A stretch of DNA of 60,773 nt, from the IMG/VR virus record IMGVR_UViG_3300030107_004154, positions 1-60,773 of that record, one strand, 5' to 3'. The position numbers and the translations under genes were made by a program. Shown piece by piece: positions 16,325 through 48,752 of this stretch (positions are counted from its first letter, which is position 1; the number at the start of each line of letters is the position of its first letter). The notes under the pieces are model-generated. The model saw only the letters and a list, made by a program, of their open reading frames with translations. It was not told the origin of the DNA and searched no databases. The stretch comes from a virus (Duplodnaviria; Caudoviricetes).

Positions 16325-18934
16325 TTATTTATCTTCTAGTTTTCTTATTCTAGAGTCAAGGTCTTCATACCCTTCTAGATCATATAAATCTTTTGGAGTA
16401 TGCGAATCTATTGCTAGTTCTTTAATTGCTTCAACTAAGAGTGGAATAACTTTTTCGTACCAAATAGTTAAGTAATCCCCATGTATAGGAGCTTCTGTAA
16501 CCACTTCTGGGAGAACTTTTTGTACTTCTTGAGCATTGAGTCCTACTTGACGCTTGTCGTTGTCATATCCTAAGCTACGAGCTAATTCATTCTCTTTAAA
16601 GTAATATCCTGTAAGTTGTAAAACTTTTTCAAGAGCATCTACTATTGGCCCTTCAAATTCTTTTAATCTTTCATCAGAGTAATAAGCAGTAATATTATTA
16701 GTTGCCCTAATTTCACCTGCTGTGCCACTTGCTGCTGTGCCTGCCCCTAAAGAGTTTAATTGAGTATTAGAACTTGTGCTTATCCCTGCCCCTGTCGGTC
16801 CTGTAGGTCCCGTCGGTCCCGTCGGTCCTGTAGGTCCGGTTGGCCCTGTAGGTCCGCCACCCCCTGTTGAACCTGGGGCACCTTTTTGTCCTTTACTTCC
16901 GTCCGAACCATCATCACCACTCGGTCCAGTAGGTCCTGTTCCACCTGTAGGACCAGTTCCACCAGAAGGCCCAGTCGGCCCAGTTGGGCCCGTTCCACCA
17001 GAAGGCCCAGTTGGGCCCGTTCCACCAGTTGAACCAGTAGCTCCTTTTTGTCCTTTTTGTCCTTTAGAACCATCTGATCCATCTGACCCATCGCTTCCGC
17101 CTGGTCCAGTTGGTCCAGTTGGACCTGTTCCACCAGTTGAACCGGTAGCTCCTTTTTGTCCTTTTTGTCCTTTGGCCCCTGCGGAACCATCACTACCATC
17201 GCTACCCGCAGGTCCCGTTGGTCCTGTGCCCCCGGTTGGTCCAGTTCCGCCACTTGGGCCCGTAGACCCAACTTCTCCTTTTTGTCCTTTTGAACCGTCT
17301 GATCCATCTGACCCGTCTGAACCAGCAGGTCCTGTAGAACCTGTAGGTCCACTAGCTCCTACCTCACCTTTTTGTCCTTTAGAACCTGTAGGTCCCGTTG
17401 GGCCTGTTCCTCCAGTAGGTCCTGCTCCTCCTGTAGATCCAACTTCTCCTTTTTGTCCTTTTGAACCGTCTGAACCATCACTACCATCTGAACCAGCGGG
17501 TCCAGTAGGTCCAGTAGGCCCTGTTCCTCCAGTTGATCCAACTTCACCTTTTTGTCCTTTTGAACCGTCTGATCCGTCTGATCCCCCTGGCCCTGTTGGT
17601 CCTGTTGGTCCTGTTGGTCCTGTAGGACCGGTTGGGCCGGTTGGGCCGGCTGGTCCTGTGTCTCCAACATCACCCGTTCTTGCAAAAGTAACTACTACAT
17701 TATTGCCATTGCCAAAGGGGCTTGCTGCCGAACTATCAACATTACTTACTGTTATATCAAAGTATCCACTTGCTTCTGATAAACTTGAAATTGTATAAAG
17801 TAGAAATTTATTAGCATCTGTTTTTAATGAAATTTTTACATGCCCTTTAATAGTAGAAGTTGAATCATCTATTGTTCTTAAGAAAGATTGAATATCACTG
17901 GAACCAGCATCAGCATCATCTATATAGATACCTGTAGCACCATTCTGAGTTGAATTATCTAGTCTAAGGGTTCCCGCTCCAGGGTCCGCATTAGTTGTTG
18001 TAGTGCTGAAAGCATATTCAAAAGATTGTCCACCAAAATTACCTTGTGGTCCGGTAGGACCTGTAGGACCCGTAGGACCTGTACCTCCAGTTGGGCCTGT
18101 ACTACCCCCTGGTCCTGTTGAGCCTACTTCTCCTTTTTGTCCTTTAGACCCGTCTGAACCATCTGAACCATCTGAACCTGCTGAACCGCCAGGACCGGTA
18201 GGACCCGTAGATCCAACTTCTCCTTTTTGACCTTTATCCCCAGCTGAGCCTCCAGGACCTGTAGGGCCTGTGCTTCCTGTTGAGCCTACTTCTCCTTTTT
18301 GGCCTTTAGAGCCATCTGAACCATCTGAACCATCTGAACCTGCTGAACCTGTAGGGCCGGATGGGCCTGTGGGACCCGTGGAGCCAACTTCTCCTTTTTG
18401 GCCTTTCGCCCCGGCTGAACCATCTGAACCATCTGAACCTGTTGGGCCTGTTGGACCTGTACTACCTCCTGGCCCAGTTGGACCTGTTGGACCTGCCCCT
18501 CCAACTTCTCCTTTTTGTCCTTTCTGCCCTTTTATACCACCAGTGGGGCCTTGCCATTCACCTGAGCTATTAATAACCTCAGAGCCACCTATTTTTACAC
18601 CAGTTATGTCAATGACACCTGTTTGAGAGTTTTGGTCTAATTGAGGAAACGTTTCTAAGACTTTAGCTGTTAAACGTAGATCACAAGCATCACCAGCATC
18701 AAAAGAACGTGCTGAAGTTCCGTCTTGTTCACGGACTACTGTGAGCGTATTACCGCTCCTGGCAGTTACTTTAACTACCTCATTGTTTGTCCCGTCATCA
18801 AACGTTACATAAAACGACTGTCCGCTACTTAGTGTAGGAAAGACCGAACCATCTGTAACTCCAATACTGGTAACAGAGGTGTTGATATCTCCTGATAGAG
18901 TCGTAGTCGCATTGTTCTTAAAAACAATTGCCAA
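16325..18934 (-). CDS. Collagen-like tail fibre with C-terminal peptidase-S74 intramolecular chaperone
   Basis: Two long Gly-X-Y tracts ([15 protein letters not shown]) separated by a ~120-aa globular insert; YYSDERLK...[17 protein letters not shown]...LLVEAIKEL. Confidence 0.92.
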
Positions 18935-37864: not shown

Positions 37865-39510
37865 TATGCGCTCATTGCAGTTTTACTCTTTTTGTCTTTC
37901 GCAATATATCTTAACCTATCTCGCCAAGAAGGTATATGCTCAGGCCTCTCATAAAAAGTTGCAAACTCAACCATCATTAAACCCACCCAGGCCAAAGCAT
38001 CAACTTGGTCATCATTGACCCCATTAGGAAAACGAAGAAGTTCAGCCACCATTGGGCCGGTCCAAATTGCGTCCTTCGGAAAGTATACCATGCCTTGTTG
38101 CATTCTACCTTGAATTGCTCTAGCTCTAGCTTCTTTATCTCGTCGCCCAACTTTTAAATCCTTAAAATAAGCAGAATGTAATTTACGTTCTGCTACACGT
38201 TTCTCTAGGAAAGGACCAATAGCCATTTCGATATGACCACGTTCTATCCCCACGATTCCCGGTCGCCACTGTTCGTACAAATCCAGGATCTTTTCTACAA
38301 GCTCGAATCCGTCATACTTCCCACGTACAGCATCAACTACAAACATATTATCATATTCATCTACTCCAACTACAACCCCAACAGAAAAATCGTTCCTTTC
38401 TCTTTGTCCTATAGCCAAGTCCCACGCACAATAATATCGTAATCTGTCATATTCAATTTCTTCGGGTTCATAATATTTAACCATGTCCCTAGTAAAATAG
38501 TCACCTTCATCTGATACTGGGTTCTGTTGGTATAGCGCGGTCCAGTCCCTTGGACCAATCGCTTTTTGTATCATTTCTAAAGATTCTAGGTTGTATCTTT
38601 CTGGGTGTAATGGTTCGCCTGTTTTTCTAAATTCTTCATCTTCTTCTGCTACTGCTGGATATTTGACCACTTCCCATTCATCTGCGCCATCTTCCGCATG
38701 TTGCAATAAACGGCCAGCTAAATCATCATCATGCCATCTAGTAAGAATAACTAGTATACCTCCACCGGGGGATAGTCGGGTATATGCTGTAGAGGTATAC
38801 CAGTCCCACGTCGCTTCGCGGTTGTTTTCAGATTCAGCATCTTCTCTGTTTTTTACCGGGTCATCAATTAATAATATATTTGCACCTTTACCTGTAATAC
38901 CACCACCAACACCGGCCGCGACATAACCACCCCCTTGGGTCGTTAACCAGGATTCGATAGACTGCGAATCTTTATCTAGTTTTGTTTTTTCAAAAACATT
39001 TTTATAGTTAGGTTCCCTTAATAATTGACGAACCTTCCTTGAGAAACTCATAGCTAAGGAGCCCGAATACGAACAACTAATAAATTCATGTTTTGGGTTT
39101 TTTCCTAAATGCCAAGCAGGAAAAGCCACACTAGCCAGAGTTGACTTCCCATGCCTCGGAGGCATAAACAGCATCAGTCTTGGGGATTTCTGATCAGCCA
39201 CATCTTGACTAAATTTCTCCAATCGTTGGCAAATATCTTTATGGACCCAACCTGCTTGGTAATCAGGATTAAATTTTTCTACAAAGGGTAGAAGACGTTT
39301 TCTGGACAATACACGCATCGCCAGTTCTTTTTCTGCACGAGCTTGTGCATCTAGTTCTTTTTGATCTGGACCGGGGTCCGCTGGTGGAGGTTTAGGCAAC
39401 TCGTCCGCTTCATCCGCTGCGCAATACACACAGAGCCCTTTGGGCAATACAAGATTTTCAGCTAATAGCTTCTTGCACTTGTAGCATTCGAGCTTTTGTA
39501 AATCTGGCAT
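37864..39510 (-). CDS. terL: Terminase large subunit
   Basis: MPPRHGKS Walker A, LLIDDPVK Walker B, TRWHDDDLAG, ALYQQNP, AWDLA, FPNGVNDDQVDA; N-terminal CxxC...CxxC. Confidence 0.95.
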   Translation of the reverse strand: MPDLQKLECYKCKKLLAENLVLPKGLCVYCAADEADELPKPPPADPGPDQKELDAQARAEKELAMRVLSRKRLLPFVEKFNPDYQAGWVHKDICQRLEKFSQDVADQKSPRLMLFMPPRHGKSTLASVAFPAWHLGKNPKHEFISCSYSGSLAMSFSRKVRQLLREPNYKNVFEKTKLDKDSQSIESWLTTQGGGYVAAGVGGGITGKGANILLIDDPVKNREDAESENNREATWDWYTSTAYTRLSPGGGILVILTRWHDDDLAGRLLQHAEDGADEWEVVKYPAVAEEDEEFRKTGEPLHPERYNLESLEMIQKAIGPRDWTALYQQNPVSDEGDYFTRDMVKYYEPEEIEYDRLRYYCAWDLAIGQRERNDFSVGVVVGVDEYDNMFVVDAVRGKYDGFELVEKILDLYEQWRPGIVGIERGHIEMAIGPFLEKRVAERKLHSAYFKDLKVGRRDKEARARAIQGRMQQGMVYFPKDAIWTGPMVAELLRFPNGVNDDQVDALAWVGLMMVEFATFYERPEHIPSWRDRLRYIAKDKKSKTAMSA

Positions 39511-42600: not shown

Positions 42601-42641
42601 AGGGAATTAGTAGACGCGTGCGTCGAACATTCCCTTTTTTT
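42601..42641 (+). terminator. Rho-independent terminator
   Basis: AGGGAAT...GACGC/GCGTC...ATTCCCT followed by a T-run. Confidence 0.55.
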
Positions 42642-42834
42642 ATGTTTATTAGTTAACACGTGCAACATTGCTTCACGTGGAACAATCCGTGCGTGTTGCT
42701 ACTAGCCCCGCCTAAATCCGTGGCTGATGCTAAACCATCAGCCACCCCGCAGCGGTTACCCGTGCGGGTTTAGGCCGGCATCCGCAACAGCGCACCCCAG
42801 CTACAACTGCTTGCAATAGACCCCCTAAAGCTAG

Positions 42835-42860
42835 CGCCCTATCGCAAGCGATTACGGGCG
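42835..42860 (+). promoter_or_regulatory. Conserved bulged hairpin element, copy 3
   Basis: CGCCC-T-ATCGC-AA-GCGAT-TAC-GGGCG. Confidence 0.7.
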
Positions 42861-42905
42861 ATTCCATAATTTAGTGTATTTAATTAAGTCCATAAGGAGG
42901 TAAAT

Positions 42906-43822: not shown

Positions 43823-43854
43823 CGGGGAGAGCTTTAGGGCTTTCCCCGCTTTTT
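43823..43854 (+). terminator. Rho-independent terminator
   Basis: CGGGGAGAGCT-TTAG-GGCTTTCCCCG then CTTTTT. Confidence 0.75.
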
Positions 43855-43876: not shown

Positions 43877-44473
43877 ATGGCTAATGTAAAAGAATTTCAA
43901 ATTAATCCACCTAACTTTCAGAAAGTACAACTGAAAGTCACAGGTTTAACACCGTTAATTCAGAATAAAATGAAGGAAACAGTGATACAAGAAATGGAAG
44001 ATGTTCGTGCGGGTAAGAAGACGAAAGTCAATGCCCAGAGAACAGCTATCGACCCTAAAAAAGAATATATCAAGTCTGCTTATAAGCAAGACGATGGTTC
44101 TTTTGGTTTTCCAGCATCTGCCTTTAAACAATGTGCAGTGCGTGCCGGTAAAGCCCTGGGCTTAGCTATGACTGACGCAAGAACATTATTCTTCGTGTTA
44201 CCAACTGCCCCTGACGGTGAGTGCGTGAGCATAAAGAGTAAGAAACCAGTCTTGCGTAAAGATCCAGTAAATGTAAAAACCGGAAAAGATCTAAGATTTA
44301 GACCGGAATTTAAAGACTGGAAAGCTGAATTATTAGTAAGTTATGACGCCGATAGAATTACTATTGAGCAAATAGCTAACTTACTTAACCATGGTGGTCA
44401 AACTGTTGGCGTAGGCGAATGGAGACCAGAAAAGAATGGTACGTTTGGTATGTTCCAAGTAGGAGCTAAATAA
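43877..44473 (+). CDS. Stand-alone Cas7/RAMP-like RNA-binding protein (Vipr-like candidate)
   Basis: RAMP-type signature order: LKVTGLTPLI (beta1), GFPASAFKQCA (cf. IPGSSLKG), LRFRPEF, C-terminal glycine-rich loop GGQTVGVGEWRPEKNGTFGMFQV. Confidence 0.7.
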   Translation: MANVKEFQINPPNFQKVQLKVTGLTPLIQNKMKETVIQEMEDVRAGKKTKVNAQRTAIDPKKEYIKSAYKQDDGSFGFPASAFKQCAVRAGKALGLAMTDARTLFFVLPTAPDGECVSIKSKKPVLRKDPVNVKTGKDLRFRPEFKDWKAELLVSYDADRITIEQIANLLNHGGQTVGVGEWRPEKNGTFGMFQVGAK

Positions 44474-44961
44474 TGCCACGCGGAAGAAAGCCAAAAGCTG
44501 ATATCAGAGATGAACTGCTAAAAATTCGAAAGAAATATGGCAGTCTCTCTGCTTCCGCAGTCGTTACAGAGGCTAAAAAGAAACGACATCCGTTACATCC
44601 CTTTTTTAACTGGGATGATACAGACGCAGCCAAGAAGTGGCGTTTGCATCAGGCAAACATGCTTATTGTGCGTGCGAAAATAACCTTCACAACACATGAA
44701 CAGCAAACTATTAAAGCTTTCATTAGTGTTGCAGATGAAGAGAATGGTAGAAATTTTGTTTACACTGCAGACGCAGTGCAAGACAAAGAACTTATGCTTC
44801 AACTATTCGATCAATTACATACACGTATTGAGAATATAGAAGCTCAACTAACTGCGTTAAGTTTACTTAAAGGTGCAACTGCTACTGCATTGAAAAATGC
44901 TAAAACACCTATTAAACGTAGAAAACAACAGCTACAACGCTTATTACCAGCAACTGGCTAA
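44473..44961 (+). CDS. Conserved basic partner protein of the RAMP-like gene
   Basis: TAATG coupling; motif AVVTEAK..RHPLHPFFNWDDTDAAKKWRLHQA. Confidence 0.7.
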   Translation: MPRGRKPKADIRDELLKIRKKYGSLSASAVVTEAKKKRHPLHPFFNWDDTDAAKKWRLHQANMLIVRAKITFTTHEQQTIKAFISVADEENGRNFVYTADAVQDKELMLQLFDQLHTRIENIEAQLTALSLLKGATATALKNAKTPIKRRKQQLQRLLPATG

Positions 44962-44965
44962 ACAC

Positions 44966-45260
44966 GGCAGTCAGCGTTGGGTTTGGGCGGTGCCGTATGG
45001 CGGCGTTTGGTCGCGTATGGTGAGGTTTATCAAGGCAGTTGAGGCGGCGAGAGGCGACTTTCGGTTGGGTGTGGAGAGGCGAGGAGCAGTATGGCAGTTG
45101 AGGCAGCGACAGGCAGTGTTGGGTATAGCGAGGTATGGTTTTTCAAGGCAGTTAAGGCATGGTTCGTTCGCGCATAGTACTGTTCGGTAGGTTTTGTCGA
45201 GGCAGTTTAGGCTCGTCACGGAGTGGCACGTCGATGTTTGGTGCGTTAAGGCAAGGCAAC
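44966..45260 (+). repeat. Non-coding array of five units: GGCAGTYnn header + (G)GY-NN pentamers (candidate guide-RNA array)
   Basis: Headers at 44966, 45034, 45093, 45147, 45201, terminal GGCAAC at 45255; unit lengths 68, 59, 54, 54, 54; strict 5-nt period in units 2-5. Confidence 0.85.
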
Positions 45261-45302
45261 TAACTAAAGCTAGTATAAATTATATATTCCAAGGAGGTAA
45301 TT

Positions 45303-45713
45303 ATGGGATTAGATCAATATGCTGGATTTGCTAACGTAGCAGATCTAGAAACAAAAGATAATAAGGTTGTGCCGATCATCAATAATGATGACGAAGACAA
45401 CCCTTATGTAACAGTTTACGATTGGCGTAAACACGCAAGGTTACAAGAGTTTATGGAAAAGCTCTGGCAAAGAAAAAACAATAAAGAAGATTTTAACTGT
45501 AAAAAAATGGATTTACAGAGAGAAGATATTTTAGAACTACAAAAACTTGTAGAAAATGACGACTTGCCTTTCTGTGGCGGTGGATTCTTTTGGGGACATC
45601 AGTTCCAAGAAGAATCTATGAGTGAGTATAAAGAACAAGACTTAAAGTTTTGTGAAGACGCACTCAAATGGTTAGCAGAAGGTAAAGAGGTTTGGTACGA
45701 GTGTTGGTGGTAA
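45303..45713 (+). CDS. Conserved phage hypothetical protein (MGLDQY family)
   Basis: SD AAGGAGGT; MGLDQY, DWRKHARLQ, GFFWG, YECWW. Confidence 0.7.
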   Translation: MGLDQYAGFANVADLETKDNKVVPIINNDDEDNPYVTVYDWRKHARLQEFMEKLWQRKNNKEDFNCKKMDLQREDILELQKLVENDDLPFCGGGFFWGHQFQEESMSEYKEQDLKFCEDALKWLAEGKEVWYECWW

Positions 45714-45728
45714 ATTTAGGAGGTAATT

Positions 45729-46748
45729 ATGAAAGATACTATAACTTGTGATATATCAGAGTTAAAGAATCACATTAAAGCTTGTATAGCAAGTGAAACG
45801 ACACCGATGATTTGGGGCGCCCCAGGCGTAGGAAAATCTGAGGTTGTACAACAAGTAGCAGATGAGCAAGGAGTTGCTTTAATTGATTTCCGTGCAAATC
45901 TGTTTGATCCTGTGGATGTAAGAGGTATACCTTTTCTCCATCAGAAAGATATAGATTCGCCGAAACAGACAGGCTGGGCAGTCCCAGATGTATTTCCAAG
46001 AGTAGAAAGAGACGGGGACCGTGGTATCTTGTTCATAGATGAGATAACAACAGCCCCTACTGCAACACAGAACTCTTTCTTACAACTGTTAATAAAACCT
46101 TTTAAAATAGGTGATTATAAATTGCCTCCAGGTTGGAGAACAGTTTGTGCTGGTAACAGAATGACCGATGGAGCTGCTGTATATCAAATGCCTGCAACAG
46201 TTAAAGATAGAGTTATGCATTACACTTTAACCCCTACTTTAGACGCTTGGTGTAACTGGGCATTTAAATCTAATATCCATCCAGATATTATTAGTTTCAT
46301 TAGATACAGACCTAATCTTTTATTAGACCTGAGAAAAGATGAAGCTAATCCATCCCCAAGAACTTGGGCGTTATTAAGCAAAACACTACCTAAGTTAACC
46401 CCTGATCTTATTATGTCGGGTGTAACTGCTGCTGTTGGTGAAGGTGCTGCCGGTGAGTTTATAACTTTTAGGCAGATTGCTAATAAGTTACCTAATTTAG
46501 ATACACTTATAGCTAACCCTACTACTTATGTTAAGGACGACAATCCAGCATTATTATATGCTTTGTCAGTAGGTCTAGCATCTAGAGCAGACCAAAATAC
46601 AATGGCAAATATCATGGAAATAGCTAAAAAGATACCAATAGAGTACCAGGTTGTGCTTGTTAAAGGTGCTTTAGCTAAAGATAGACAATTGTTACAGCAT
46701 AATGATGTTGTTACTTGGTCGCAAAAGAACCAAAACGTAGTAATGTAA
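45729..46748 (+). CDS. MoxR-like AAA+ ATPase
   Basis: WGAPGVGKS, DVRGIP, ILFIDEI, CAGNR, PSPRTW. Confidence 0.9.
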   Translation: MKDTITCDISELKNHIKACIASETTPMIWGAPGVGKSEVVQQVADEQGVALIDFRANLFDPVDVRGIPFLHQKDIDSPKQTGWAVPDVFPRVERDGDRGILFIDEITTAPTATQNSFLQLLIKPFKIGDYKLPPGWRTVCAGNRMTDGAAVYQMPATVKDRVMHYTLTPTLDAWCNWAFKSNIHPDIISFIRYRPNLLLDLRKDEANPSPRTWALLSKTLPKLTPDLIMSGVTAAVGEGAAGEFITFRQIANKLPNLDTLIANPTTYVKDDNPALLYALSVGLASRADQNTMANIMEIAKKIPIEYQVVLVKGALAKDRQLLQHNDVVTWSQKNQNVVM

Positions 46749-46761
46749 CAAAGGAGGAATA

Positions 46762-47439
46762 ATGAAAACAGTTAGATTATCACAAACGTTAAAACATGAC
46801 ATTTTACAAACTGCTGAAGAAAAGTTTCGAAATGTTAACCCAAGAAAATCATATCCAGAAAAAGGACTAGATGTGCTGGAAAGCCATGGAGTAACTCAAA
46901 AGATTGAAAAAACTAGAGCACAGTTTAAAGAGATTTGGGACATGGATATGCCTTTGAAAACCATTGATAAGATTAAGATTAAAGCAGAAGGCATAGAAAC
47001 CATAGATGATGAAGGTCACCCCAGTGAACCAGAATCTAGAGCTTATACTCTTTCAATACCAGAAATGGAAGTGCCCTCTTTTATCTGTAGTGATTCTTAT
47101 TATGATACAGCTTTAAAAGTTAAAGTAGAGCCAGATGATCTTGTATTTTCTGAGTGTTATCAAATAGAGGTCTACAATGAAAATCTTGAAAAACAGATGA
47201 GAAAACAGAGAATGGAATTAGATATTACTTTAGATAAATTTCCAACGTTAAATCAATTGCTTAAAGCTGCACCTTGGATATCTAAACTCGTGCCACCTGA
47301 AAGGATCCAAAAAATGCACGAAAAAGATGATCGCAAAAGAAAGCAGCAAGAACAGCAAGAAATAGCTGAAACTGAATTATCTAATCTAAAAAACACTGTC
47401 CTTTCTGATTCTTTATTAGGTGGTACTAGTAATGAATAA
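46762..47439 (+). CDS. Hypothetical protein (Nmad5-like)
   Basis: N-terminal VRLSQTLKHDI and TLNQLLKAAPW.SKLVP pattern. Confidence 0.5.
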   Translation: MKTVRLSQTLKHDILQTAEEKFRNVNPRKSYPEKGLDVLESHGVTQKIEKTRAQFKEIWDMDMPLKTIDKIKIKAEGIETIDDEGHPSEPESRAYTLSIPEMEVPSFICSDSYYDTALKVKVEPDDLVFSECYQIEVYNENLEKQMRKQRMELDITLDKFPTLNQLLKAAPWISKLVPPERIQKMHEKDDRKRKQQEQQEIAETELSNLKNTVLSDSLLGGTSNE

Positions 47440-47629
47440 ATATGAATTCTATAACGACACCATAATGTTTTGGAGAAGTGGGAGAATGATTGTCGAAGTC
47501 AGATCTATTGGTCACAAATGGGTATGGCTTCGACATAATCCACGTAAAAACTTTCGTAAAATCCCTAGAGCCCACTGGGATAGGATAACAAAAGGTAAAC
47601 AATTTAAGGAGATAAAAAATGAATCCTGA
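47432..47629 (+). CDS. Small basic hypothetical protein
   Basis: Overlaps both neighbours; RSIGHKWVWLR. Confidence 0.55.
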   Translation: MNKYEFYNDTIMFWRSGRMIVEVRSIGHKWVWLRHNPRKNFRKIPRAHWDRITKGKQFKEIKNES

Positions 47630-48752
47630 GTTAGTTAAAGCACGTGCTGCATTAATAACAGACCAACCGTTCTTTGGTACCCTTATGCTTAAACTTAAGG
47701 TAAAAGAATGGGAAGATTCTACAGGAGCCACTGACGGTGTTAATCTATTTTATAACCTAAAATGGTTTCTAAAACTGCCGTACAATGCACGTCTAGGCTT
47801 TTTAGCCCATGAAATTATGCATATTGTTGGTTTACATCCTAGTAGAAGAGGAGAAAGACATCCTAGGAAATGGAATGTTGCTTGCGACTACGCTATTAAT
47901 AATTATCTTATTAAACAAGGGTTTATATTGCCAGATGGCGGACTAGTTGACGATCAGTACGACGACATGAGTGCCGAAGAAATCTATGAACTACTACCGG
48001 AACCTCCTTCGGGCTGGGACTCAGTTAGTATGGATTTTGGTGGTTGTGGCGGCGTACTTGATCACCCTGGTTTAGATGGTACAGATGGTACCTTTAAAAC
48101 AGTGGAATCTGAATTACGTACTGCAATTGCCCAATCAGCTGAAGCTGCAAAGATGAGTGGTAATTTACCTGGAGCTTTAAAAGACTTTATAGACCAGGCT
48201 CTTGAGCCTCAAGTTGATTGGAGAACCGTGCTTGCTAGATTTTTAACAGCTAATAATAAGAATGACTATAGCTGGCTTAAAGCAAATAGACGTTTTATAG
48301 GCAACGGATTATATCTACCATCTCTGTATAGCACTGGACTTGAAGAGATTGTAATTGCTGTAGATACCTCAGGATCTGTTTCCAATGAGGAATTAGAACA
48401 ATTTACTGGAGAAACTTCTGCAATTTTAAGAGAGTTAAACCCTGAAAAAATACAATTTTTACAGTGTGATACAGAAGTATGTGCAACCGATGAGTACACT
48501 AAAGATAATTTACCTTTAGAAGTTACTTATGAAGGAAGAGGCGGAACCTGTTTCTATCCAGTAATTAATCATATCAACGAGCATTTTCCTAATATACGTG
48601 CATTAGTATATTTGACAGATTTAGGTGTAAGTTATAATGATTTCGGGGAAGCGCCTGATTATCCAGTACTATGGGTAAGCACACACCCCGCAGATCACTT
48701 AGAAGAAGGAGTACCATATGGAGAAGTCATCCAAATGCAAAAACATAGCTAA
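47619..48752 (+). CDS. HExxH metallopeptidase-like + vWA domain protein (DUF2201-like), partner of the MoxR ATPase
   Basis: ATDG, LAHEIMH, WNVACDYAIN, MIDAS motif DTSGS, GRGGT, YLTD. Confidence 0.88.
   Translation: MNPELVKARAALITDQPFFGTLMLKLKVKEWEDSTGATDGVNLFYNLKWFLKLPYNARLGFLAHEIMHIVGLHPSRRGERHPRKWNVACDYAINNYLIKQGFILPDGGLVDDQYDDMSAEEIYELLPEPPSGWDSVSMDFGGCGGVLDHPGLDGTDGTFKTVESELRTAIAQSAEAAKMSGNLPGALKDFIDQALEPQVDWRTVLARFLTANNKNDYSWLKANRRFIGNGLYLPSLYSTGLEEIVIAVDTSGSVSNEELEQFTGETSAILRELNPEKIQFLQCDTEVCATDEYTKDNLPLEVTYEGRGGTCFYPVINHINEHFPNIRALVYLTDLGVSYNDFGEAPDYPVLWVSTHPADHLEEGVPYGEVIQMQKHS

What the first reader, a model, noticed from the sequence alone, without database searches (positions are those of the whole stretch)
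44966..45260. Decoding of the array: conserved triplets, variable dinucleotides
After a 9-nt header (GGCAGTCAG, GGCAGTTGA x2, GGCAGTTAA, GGCAGTTTA), units parse as triplet+NN. U2: GGC-gg CGA-ga GGC-ga CTT-tc GGT-tg GGT-gt GGA-ga GGC-ga GGA-gc AGT-at. U3: GGC-ag CGA-ca GGC-ag TGT-tg GGT-at AGC-ga GGT-at GGT-tt TTC-aa. U4: GGC-at GGT-tc GTT-cg CGC-at AGT-ac TGT-tc GGT-ag GTT-tt GTC-ga. U5: GGC-tc GTC-ac GGA-gt GGC-ac GTC-ga TGT-tt GGT-gc GTT-aa GGC-aa. U1 has about 12 steps with one 1-nt slip. Lengths 59 and 54 differ by exactly one step, and the NN strings differ between units, unlike a slippage microsatellite. If every third target base is skipped, the code could ignore codon wobble positions (speculation). 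I found no convincing self-target by eye.
Basis: partly seen in the sequence, partly recalled or inferred. Interest (0 to 1): 0.85.

Follow-up and report, generated by a model that had tools for sequence, protein, structure and literature searches.

The report
Phage VIPR guide-RNA array

Summary
Window 44966-45264 is a non-coding, G-rich array with a real 5-nt period. Its units are a GGCAG junction followed by G(G/T)Y+NN pentamers.

A DNA-pattern scan found the same array type in many viral contigs. Unit lengths there are quantised as 5n+4. Triplet positions are conserved and the NN positions are nearly random.

In 31 and 27 of 39 such loci the array sits beside homologues of the two upstream genes. 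One gene (43877-44473) is a RAMP protein homologous to the solved SUSP1 Vipr protein. Its predicted fold is Cas7/Csm3-like.

2026 preprints describe this system: VIPR, with vrRNAs of alternating GGY/NN that read DNA while skipping every third base.

This locus is an unreported member with a tail-less array. Adjacent guides appear to overlap by 1 nt.

Exact gapped searches gave candidate targets, all aligned with codon wobble positions:
- a family B DNA polymerase gene in another viral contig;
- a Cas4-like nuclease gene in Saccharibacteria MAGs;
- the last codons of glmS.

Their reality is uncertain.

The parts
43823..43848 (+). terminator-like hairpin followed by a T run, just upstream of vipr; probably the end of the preceding transcription unit
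   Evidence: consensus scan only; a sub-threshold Rfam match lies at the same place
43877..44473 (+). vipr gene: 198-aa RAMP protein, the vrRNA-binding filament subunit
   Evidence: Profile of 18 homologues against PDB sequences: SUSP1 Vipr (36pp) E 5.8e-13. The single sequence gives E 6.2e-10, with R142, E181, W182 and R183 aligned to SUSP1 R138, D177, W178 and R179. AF2 model pLDDT 80.6. Foldseek top hits are Csm3/Cas7 RAMPs, E 1.6e-5. phrog_4652.
44473..44961 (+). vap-like accessory gene (162 aa, phrog_15946), function unknown
   Evidence: Adjacent to the array in 31 of 39 array loci. No Pfam family. AF2 model pLDDT 87.4. Only weak winged-helix-like Foldseek rows, best E 0.068.
44966..45264 (+). 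vrRNA array: five or six guides made of G(G/T)Y+NN pentamers, joined at GGCAG|GTY junctions
   Evidence: It is the only G-K-Y-N-N tract of the window with 5 or more of 8 pentamers in frame, apart from one spot inside a CDS. As RNA it is no more structured than shuffles, z +0.92.
44970..44989 (+). v1a: short four-pentamer remnant before a 1-nt slip
44989..45038 (+). guide v1b (10 pentamers)
   Evidence: One exact 18-base hit in viral contigs (L151), at the level expected by chance.
45038..45097 (+). guide v2 (12 pentamers); differs between strains
   Evidence: Rewritten in a variant contig of run X5, with 18 of the listed substitutions plus indels inside it. Exact 22-base match in a PD-(D/E)XK/Cas4-like gene of two Saccharibacteria MAGs.
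45097..45151 (+). guide v3 (11 pentamers)
   Evidence: No exact hit in viral contigs. One hit in metagenome contigs that is probably chance.
45151..45205 (+). guide v4 (11 pentamers)
   Evidence: Exact 20-base match to codons 5-14 of a family B DNA polymerase ORF in a 105-kb viral contig.
45205..45264 (+). guide v5 (nine variable pentamers, then GGCAA GGCAA instead of GGCAG)
   Evidence: Its exact 18-base pattern hits the last 8 codons plus stop of glmS in 11 of 13 viral-contig hits. No listed strain difference falls on its 18 NN bases (that table is incomplete).

Best explanation
Window 43877-45264 is a VIPR (Viral Interference Programmable Repeat) locus of a marine tailed phage. It comprises a vipr gene, a vap-like accessory gene and an array of five to six guide RNAs (vrRNAs).

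Inferred from the published mechanism:
- The array is transcribed with the two genes and cut into units.
- One Vipr protomer binds each pentamer, holds the G(G/T)Y triplet and presents the two NN bases.
- The filament pairs NN with double-stranded DNA that reads xNN xNN..., skipping every third base, and blocks transcription there.

Specific to this locus:
- The units have no long 3' tail.
- Neighbouring guides meet at a constant GGCAG pentamer whose last G is also the first base of the next guide's GTYNN pentamer. This explains why unit lengths are always 5n+4.

Shown here: the sequence pattern, its conservation, its linkage to vipr, and the homology and fold of Vipr. Inferred: transcription, processing at the junction, RNP formation and silencing.
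For: Period-5 signal and the GGY/NN profile.

Header spacings of 80 nt or less in these fall at 5n+4 in 379 of 641 cases; most of the rest are multiples of 9 from coding repeats.

Of 39 non-coding array loci, 31 have the vap-like gene and 27 the vipr gene next to the array, always on the G-rich strand. Some contigs were fetched twice: L002/L038 and L004/L057 are the same contigs by name, and L046/L096 have identical header spacings.

Vipr homology to PDB 36pp 'SUSP1 Vipr protein': E 5.8e-13 for the profile and 6.2e-10 for the single sequence, with the G-loop and thumb contact residues conserved. The predicted fold is Cas7/Csm3-like.

The preprints define VIPR by exactly these parts. They mention staggered arrays with vrRNAs from 1-nt overlapping positions (legend of fig. 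S18).

There is no self-target. Cross-targeting in the family: guides from five other arrays match one family A DNA polymerase ORF in L076 at 17/18 to 20/22 NN bases with the skip on wobble.

In a related strain, guide v2 is rewritten while the flanking vap gene has 4 listed substitutions in 489 nt.
Against: No RNA data: no listed sequencing run is on record as RNA, so transcription, unit ends and processing are untested.

The window's own triplets are less canonical than in other arrays. GG starts 44% of its pentamers, against 92% in L060. Unit 1 has a slip. Parts of the array could therefore be decaying.

The SUSP1 residue that reads the first G (H17) aligns with Asn in this clade.

The conserved 3' tail with pseudoknot of the characterised type II systems is absent.

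The VIPR type and the vap number cannot be assigned, because the type table is in figures and supplements I could not read.
Confidence: 0.93

Rival explanations
1. The locus is a VIPR system, but the exact target hits I found are chance, and the true targets (probably rival phages or satellites of an unknown marine host) are not in the collections searched.
For: Expected chance hits are not negligible. An 18-base pattern gave about 2 unrelated hits in viral contigs (L141 and L142). By scaling, a 20-base pattern is expected to give about 0.1-0.2 (my estimate). My estimate for a 22-base pattern in 596 Gb is about 0.1. Guide v3 has no viral hit. Its one metagenome hit lies in a locus of GC 0.63, unlike this phage. 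The one hit of v1b looks like chance. No other guide of the window or its clade hits the 105-kb contig above shuffled level.
Against: The exact hits of v2 and v4 and 11 of v5's 13 hits put NN on codon positions 1-2. The v5 hits fall on one deeply conserved motif in loci of GC 0.30-0.57. A random pattern should rarely do this. The v2 motif is matched with up to 3 mismatches in 26 of 401 genomes of the same class, against 1 for the backwards control. This follows from one event in a conserved gene.
Confidence: 0.4
2. The array is a decaying or orphaned VIPR array that no longer makes working guides.
For: Many non-canonical triplets in the window (cga, ctt, agt, tgt, agc, ttc) and a slipped first unit. 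The last unit lacks the GGCAG end.
Against: The whole clade uses G(G/T)Y, with GGT, GTT, GGC and GTC making up 276 of 399 internal triplets. The preprint notes frequent internal degeneracy of vrRNAs. The vipr and vap reading frames are intact. Three of the five guides searched with (v1b, v2-v5) have exact codon-phased matches. The listed strain differences in v5 fall on triplet positions 2 and 3, not on NN (the table is incomplete).
Confidence: 0.07
3. The array is a DNA-level element of the replication module: origin iterons, or a G-rich non-template stretch that forms R-loops.
For: It lies among early and replication genes on the + strand and is G-rich on the non-template strand, with GC skew +0.33 to +0.54.
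Against: It travels with vipr and vap, not with replication genes: the other neighbours vary. Only 5-7 bases per unit are constant. Length steps of 5 would turn a duplex-binding site by half a helical turn. The NN positions are nearly random.
Confidence: 0.02
4. The array is an RNA sponge for a ring-shaped or polymeric RNA-binding protein of the TRAP kind (triplets separated by 2-nt spacers).
For: The triplet+2 period, and a modal 54-nt unit close to 11 x 5.
Against: Unit length ranges from 39 to 79 nt, so no fixed ring size fits. The linked protein is a RAMP homologous to Vipr. No TRAP-like gene was seen beside the arrays.
Confidence: 0.01

Closest known systems
VIPR type II systems of Escherichia phage SUSP1 and a Pseudomonas fulva prophage (bioRxiv 10.64898/2026.04.26.720920 and .720927; Results read)
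   Same: Phage-borne. Has a Vipr RAMP protein (E 6.2e-10 to the SUSP1 protein), an adjacent accessory gene, and intergenic guides of GGY+NN pentamers. The candidate targets follow the 1-nt skip with the skip on wobble.
   Different: No invariable 3' tail of about 40 nt with a pseudoknot. Units are 54-69 nt rather than about 100 nt. Guides abut and share one base at GGCAG|GTY. Triplet position 2 is often T. The vap-like protein finds no Escherichia phage by tblastn: 33 records, of which 27 are Mycobacterium, 5 Gordonia and 1 cyanophage. The Vipr protein does find Escherichia phages (77 of 159 records).
'Staggered vrRNA arrays' mentioned in the same preprint (text and legend of fig. S18)
   Same: The legend says individual vrRNAs derive from 1-nt overlapping positions, so that the end of one marks the start of the next. 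This fits the 5n+4 unit lengths and the shared G seen here.
   Different: I could not see the figure or the type table, so I cannot say whether the GGCAG junction, this vap family or this Vipr clade is the one shown.
Unannotated loci in cultured actinophages: Gordonia phage ODay genes 19/20, Mycobacterium phage Pippy genes 48/49
   Same: Same pair of gene families: 32-34% and about 29-32% identity. GGY/NN arrays with GGCAG junctions lie beside them.
   Different: The junction there is GGCAG|GYNN (G, not T, after the shared G). The array lies between the two genes (ODay) or upstream of vipr (Pippy). These are high-GC hosts. All genes are annotated as hypothetical.
Class 1 CRISPR-Cas effector backbones (Cas7/Csm3 on crRNA)
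   Same: RAMP fold: Foldseek E 1.6e-5, TM about 0.5. One protomer per fixed step of guide, with bases flipped out periodically.
   Different: No CRISPR repeats, spacers or cas genes. The step is 5 nt with 3 bases withheld, not 6 with 1. The target is read 2 of every 3 bases.

Membership tests
VIPR system | Vipr protein: a minimal RAMP (RRM core, glycine-rich loop, thumb) homologous to known Vipr proteins | tested here: met
   Profile against PDB sequences gives SUSP1 Vipr at E 5.8e-13 over 186 of 209 profile positions. The single sequence gives E 6.2e-10. The model's best Foldseek hits are Csm3/Cas7. A conserved C-terminal G-rich loop, GG..GVGEWRPEK.G.FG, is seen in the alignment of 18 homologues.
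VIPR system | Residues that hold the GGY triplet in SUSP1 Vipr (H17, R138, D177, W178, R179) | tested here: met
   R142, E181, W182 and R183 align with R138, D177, W178 and R179. R142 and R183 are invariant, and W182 is nearly invariant, in 18 homologues. Exception: H17 aligns with Asn30 in this clade, where other clades have His.
VIPR system | vrRNA region: at least four tandem YNNGG/GGYNN pentamers, with triplets conserved and NN hypervariable | tested here: met
   The window has 10-12 pentamers per unit. In the family, triplet-position entropies are 0.64, 1.02 and 1.43 bits against 1.95 and 1.99 for NN.
VIPR system | Compact locus: vipr plus one accessory gene (vap) flanked by the non-coding guide region, mostly in viruses | tested here: met
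   The gene order vipr, vap-like, array is on one strand. The same trio recurs in 27-31 of 39 loci found by DNA pattern alone. The window is a complete virus record with terminase and family A polymerase genes.
VIPR system | vrRNAs are expressed, processed and bound by Vipr | not testable with these tools
   No RNA run is listed for this DNA. Only DNA contigs could be laid.
VIPR system | Targets obey the 1-nt skip rule, lie mostly in coding DNA with the skip on wobble, and there is no self-target | tested here: inconclusive
   No self-target. Exact hits for 3 of 5 guides are phased on codons, but chance is not excluded for single hits. There is family-wide enrichment over shuffled guides, 20 against 8 at 2 or fewer mismatches.
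VIPR type II (SUSP1 / P. fulva clade) | Each vrRNA ends in an invariable 3' tail that folds into a hairpin or pseudoknot | tested here: not met
   The only constant element between units is GGCAG(T). The whole array folds no better than shuffles, z +0.92. No Rfam match.
VIPR type II (SUSP1 / P. fulva clade) | vap1 accessory gene | tested here: inconclusive
   The vap-like protein finds no Escherichia phage record by tblastn at E <= 1e-3. I did not hold a vap1 sequence to compare directly.
VIPR 'staggered array' architecture | Adjacent vrRNAs derive from positions overlapping by 1 nt | tested here: inconclusive
   Unit lengths of 5n+4 and the in-frame parse in which GGCAG and GTYNN share one G (43 units of the clade) fit this. 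RNA ends are unknown and the figure was not visible.
CRISPR array | Direct repeats of 23-47 nt separating unique spacers, with cas genes nearby | tested here: not met
   The constant part is 5-7 nt. No cas genes are beside the arrays.

The most novel reading that the evidence does not exclude
This phage may aim part of its VIPR array at cellular chromosomes rather than only at rival mobile elements.

- Guide v2, the one that varies between strains, matches exactly a conserved PD-(D/E)XK/Cas4-like nuclease gene of Candidatus Saccharibacteria. That would name a host lineage and suggest silencing of a host nuclease.
- Guide v5 matches the last eight codons and the stop of glmS. From recall, not from a call, this is the classical Tn7 attachment region.

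A Vipr filament at the glmS site could occupy or silence an insertion hotspot next to which mobile elements sit. In the contigs hit, resolvase/methylase genes (L139) and IS21 genes (L147) lie downstream of glmS.
Probability: 0.25. Interest if true: 0.7.

Novelty: new member of a known kind. Interest (0 to 1): 0.42.

Why it matters
VIPR was described only in 2026 preprints, from NCBI genomes, and characterised in two type II systems.

This locus and roughly 35 further viral contigs found here by DNA pattern alone show a tail-less, head-to-tail array form. It has a simple signature that can be searched for without any protein: a GGCAG junction, G(G/T)Y+NN pentamers and unit length 5n+4.

The same gene pair and arrays sit unannotated in cultured Gordonia and Mycobacterium phages. 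These would be convenient for experiments.

If the candidate targets hold, the guides would give a host clue for an uncultured marine phage. They would also extend VIPR targets to essential replication genes of rival viruses and possibly to host genes.

Tried and rejected
- **Coding:** no lag-3 signal. The ORFs over the array are artefacts of the low-A composition.
- **tRNA or known RNA family:** none.
- **Structured RNA:** the array folds no better than shuffles.
- **DNA similarity to phage records:** blastn of 44400-45800 found nothing.
- **ATPase as a route to relatives:** The search for related loci with the downstream ATPase found no relative.
- **Coding false positives:** the pattern scan also returned coding repeats with spacings that are multiples of 9, for example a 27-nt repeat in L047 and L070. 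I set these aside by composition, pentamer register and spacing. That filter is my own and crude.
- **Ideas dropped once the Vipr homology appeared:** origin iterons, R-loop region, TRAP-like sponge, G-quadruplex tracts, primase sites, antisense Rho sites.
- **Guide v3:** no exact hit in viral contigs. One hit in metagenome contigs lies in a rhodanese-like ORF of a GC 0.63 locus and is judged chance.
- **Guide v1b:** one hit in a 93-aa ORF, judged chance.
- **Guide v2:** no exact hit in viral contigs.
- **v5 in the Saccharibacteria MAGs:** the two MAGs that carry the v2 site have no v5 site beyond control level.
- **Other guides on the v4 contig:** no other guide of the window or its clade hits the 105-kb contig above shuffled level.
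- **Expression:** no RNA holder listed.
- **vap-like fold:** Foldseek gave no hit at E <= 0.001. The VIA-align wide search returned only matches to the C-terminal helical hairpin, Z about 8, which is uninformative.

Full report
**What is there.** The window is a complete 60,773-base virus record. Structural genes lie on the minus strand and early and replication genes on the plus strand. It encodes a large terminase, a family A DNA polymerase and a primase/helicase-like protein.

The finding lies in a 340-nt gap between ORF 44473-44961 and ORF 45303-45713. That gap has GC 0.51-0.60 against about 0.38 around it, and GC skew of +0.33 to +0.54. GGCAG(T) stands at 44966, 45034, 45093, 45147 and 45201.

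**Is the pattern real?** Yes. Autocorrelation against 1000 shuffles peaks at lags 5, 10, 20 and 25 (z 3.2-4.4) and at 54, 59 and 64 (z 7.8, 4.9, 4.4). There is nothing at lag 3.

**Relatives.** The upstream protein led to five viral contigs, three of which show the same kind of array at the same place.

Header spacings fall in two classes:
- 39, 44, 49, 54, ... 79 nt, that is 5n+4. These are non-coding G/T-rich arrays.
- Multiples of 9. These are coding repeats and false positives.

Of all spacings of 80 nt or less, 379 of 641 are 4 mod 5.

In 209 unique 5n+4 units (1972 pentamers), position 1 is G in 0.90, position 2 is G 0.76 or T 0.20, and position 3 is a pyrimidine in 0.88. Positions 4 and 5 are nearly uniform, at 1.95 and 1.99 bits. 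L060 is the cleanest example.

The base after GGCAG is T here, then Y, then two variable bases, then GG. So GGCAG and a first GTYNN pentamer share one G. Read that way, 43 units of the window's clade parse in frame from end to end.

**Linked genes.** I took the 39 loci that passed my filter for non-coding arrays. Some are the same contig fetched twice: L002/L038 and L004/L057 by contig name, and L046/L096 by identical header spacings. I clustered the three ORFs on each side.
- 31 loci have a homologue of 44473-44961 next to the array: 24 upstream and 7 downstream.
- 27 loci have a homologue of 43877-44473 one gene further, or directly upstream.
- All are on the G-rich strand.
- No other neighbour recurs in more than 6 loci.

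**What the genes are.** Neither has a Pfam family; they are phrog_4652 and phrog_15946, both of unknown function.

A profile of 18 homologues of 43877-44473 matches the PDB chain 36pp 'SUSP1 Vipr protein' at E 5.8e-13. The window's sequence alone gives E 6.2e-10. The AlphaFold model (pLDDT 80.6) finds Csm3/Cas7 backbone proteins of type III and VII CRISPR complexes first (E 1.6e-5, TM about 0.5).

The residues that hold the two Gs and the Y in the SUSP1 structure are R138, D177, W178 and R179. They align with R142, E181, W182 and R183. H17 aligns with Asn in this clade.

The second protein gives a confident model (pLDDT 87.4): helices, a four-stranded sheet and a long helical hairpin. It has no solid structural match. 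The best Foldseek rows are winged-helix regulators at E 0.07 or worse. The wide search matched only the hairpin.

**The known system.** A paper search on the PDB name found three 2026 preprints. I read:
- the Results, several Methods sections and the figure legends of 10.64898/2026.04.26.720920;
- the outline and part 1 of the Results of 10.64898/2026.04.26.720927;
- the outline, with its abstract, and one Results section of 10.64898/2026.10.15.759431.

They describe VIPR systems as follows. A Vipr RAMP protein and usually one accessory gene (vap) are present. vrRNAs consist of 9-16 YNNGG repeats in which GGY is conserved and NN is hypervariable. One protomer binds each repeat. The target is double-stranded DNA read as xNN, with the skipped base mostly on codon position 3. 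The outcome is transcriptional silencing of rival phages and satellites.

The characterised type II vrRNAs are about 100 nt and end in a conserved tail with a pseudoknot. Other architectures are mentioned, among them staggered arrays whose vrRNAs come from positions overlapping by 1 nt.

The window's locus has the parts that define VIPR. It lacks the tail and fits the staggered description. I cannot assign the type or the vap number, because these are in figures and supplements that I could not read.

**Distribution in cultured phages.** By tblastn the Vipr protein finds 159 phage records: 77 Escherichia, 29 Mycobacterium, 17 Salmonella, 8 Gordonia and others. The vap-like protein finds 33 records, none from Escherichia phages. 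Gordonia phage ODay and Mycobacterium phage Pippy carry both genes, annotated as hypothetical, with GGY/NN arrays and GGCAG junctions beside them.

**Targets.** I converted each guide into the xNN pattern used in the preprint.

Locally there is no self-target, and no hit above shuffled guides in 1.2 Mb of fetched loci.

Exact scans of public collections gave:

| Guide | Specified bases | Result |
|---|---|---|
| v4 | 20 | One hit in viral contigs, on codons 5-14 of a family B DNA polymerase ORF in a 105-kb contig (GC 0.32, CheckV completeness 42%). NN sits on codon positions 1-2 of the sense strand. |
| v5 | 18 | Thirteen hits in viral contigs. Eleven lie on the last eight codons plus stop of ORFs ending ...PRNLAKSVTVE (one ends ...VTVD), read on the antisense strand with the skip again on wobble. 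Four of four full-length ORFs tested are GlmS by NCBIfam. |
| v2 | 22 | No hit in viral contigs. Two hits in genome contigs, both in MAGs titled uncultured Candidatus Saccharibacteria, inside homologous 252/261-aa PD-(D/E)XK (one also Cas4-domain) ORFs at the motif EGDDSWVEDAI, in phase. Neighbours are housekeeping genes. |
| v3 | 20 | No viral hit. One metagenome hit, probably chance. |
| v1b | 18 | One hit, probably chance. |

The other two v5 hits look like chance. They set the background for 18-base patterns at about two.

With up to 3 mismatches, the v2 motif is found in 26 of 401 genomes sampled from the same class, against 1 for the backwards control.

My estimate of chance for the single v4 and v2 events is about 0.1-0.2 each before the codon phase is counted, so neither is proven. 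The v5 hits are harder to get by chance. They fall on one deeply conserved motif in loci of GC 0.30-0.57 that differ at the skipped bases.

**Support from other arrays.** I scanned 210 unique guides from 36 loci against 1.4 Mb. Of the guides scored (208 observed values in the tally), 20 have at most 2 mismatches at their best site, against 8 for the NN-shuffled versions.

Guides of L031, L069 and L105 hit the same site at 18/20, 19/20 and 20/22. Guides of L055 (19/20) and L120 (17/18) hit two other sites. All are in one family A DNA polymerase ORF of L076, with the skip on wobble. The L031 and L069 versions of that guide share 9 of 10 NN but differ in 5 of 10 triplets. Replication genes of other phages thus look like recurrent targets in this array family.

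**Strain variation.** The stretch is held by marine and seawater metagenome runs of 7 studies; none is on record as RNA.

Contigs of four of these runs were laid on the stretch. In a variant contig of run X5, the vap gene has 4 listed substitutions in 489 nt. Region 45008-45092 has 19 listed substitutions and several indels, 18 of the substitutions inside guide v2. Guides v3 and v4 show none.

Across the four runs, the listed changes within the nine variable pentamers of v5 lie on triplet positions 2 and 3 (45216, 45237, 45242). Contigs of run X18 break inside the array. The tool did not show 9 further differences, so these counts are lower bounds.

**Verdict.** The thing is a VIPR locus, a kind of system already in print. 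This is an unreported member of it, with the tail-less overlapping array form. What remains open is which targets are real, what cuts the array, what the vap-like protein does, and who the host is.

Noticed in passing
window 42640-42870: GC-rich non-coding stretch about 1 kb upstream of the VIPR genes. It folds far better than shuffles on both strands (z -5.57 and -5.80), includes a perfect 10-bp hairpin, and has no Rfam match.
   Followed up: partly
window 43823-43848: Terminator-like hairpin with a T run between the preceding ORF and vipr. A sub-threshold Rfam 'Termite-leu' match (E 0.033, 24 bits against a cut-off of 51) lies on it.
   Followed up: partly
L076 3036-5411: A family A DNA polymerase ORF in one VIPR-bearing contig is matched by guides of five other VIPR arrays (L031, L069, L105, L055, L120) at 17/18 to 20/22 NN bases, with the skip on wobble. 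This suggests cross-fire between VIPR-carrying phages.
   Followed up: partly
L126 3129-3290 (Gordonia phage ODay) and L127 2084-2320 (Mycobacterium phage Pippy): Cultured actinophages carry the same vipr and vap-like pair with GGY/NN arrays, all annotated as hypothetical proteins. In Pippy the array lies under annotated CDS 47, which may be a miscalled ORF.
   Followed up: partly
window 45008-45097, seen in contigs of runs X5 and X18: Guide v2 and part of v1b differ strongly between strains while the flanking genes and guides v3-v5 barely change. Assemblies of another run break inside the array.
   Followed up: partly
L139 614-4808, L147 4971-7227, L145 6578-7999: In contigs hit by guide v5, the DNA just downstream of glmS carries resolvase and DNA methylase genes, IS21 IstA/IstB-like genes, or a Tet/JBP oxygenase. 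Several short contigs end inside glmS, as if mobile elements sit next to it.
   Followed up: partly
window 45729-48752: Downstream cluster of an AAA ATPase (phrog_1297), a weak Nmad5-like protein (E 0.0028, below the cut-off) and a DUF2201 metallopeptidase/VWA protein. In 5 of 39 array loci the ATPase follows the array, so it is not part of the VIPR module.
   Followed up: partly
window 16325-18934 (minus strand): Long runs of 9-nt periods (collagen-like Gly-X-Y coding repeats) in an 869-aa ORF of the structural module.
   Followed up: no
L047 385-840, L070 2608-3020: 27-nt coding repeats containing GGCAGT were picked up by the header pattern. They are false positives for array searches that use the header alone.
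   Followed up: yes
window 38888-38927 (minus strand): The only other stretch of the window with 5 of 8 in-frame G-K-Y pentamers. It lies inside the terminase gene and is probably chance.
   Followed up: no
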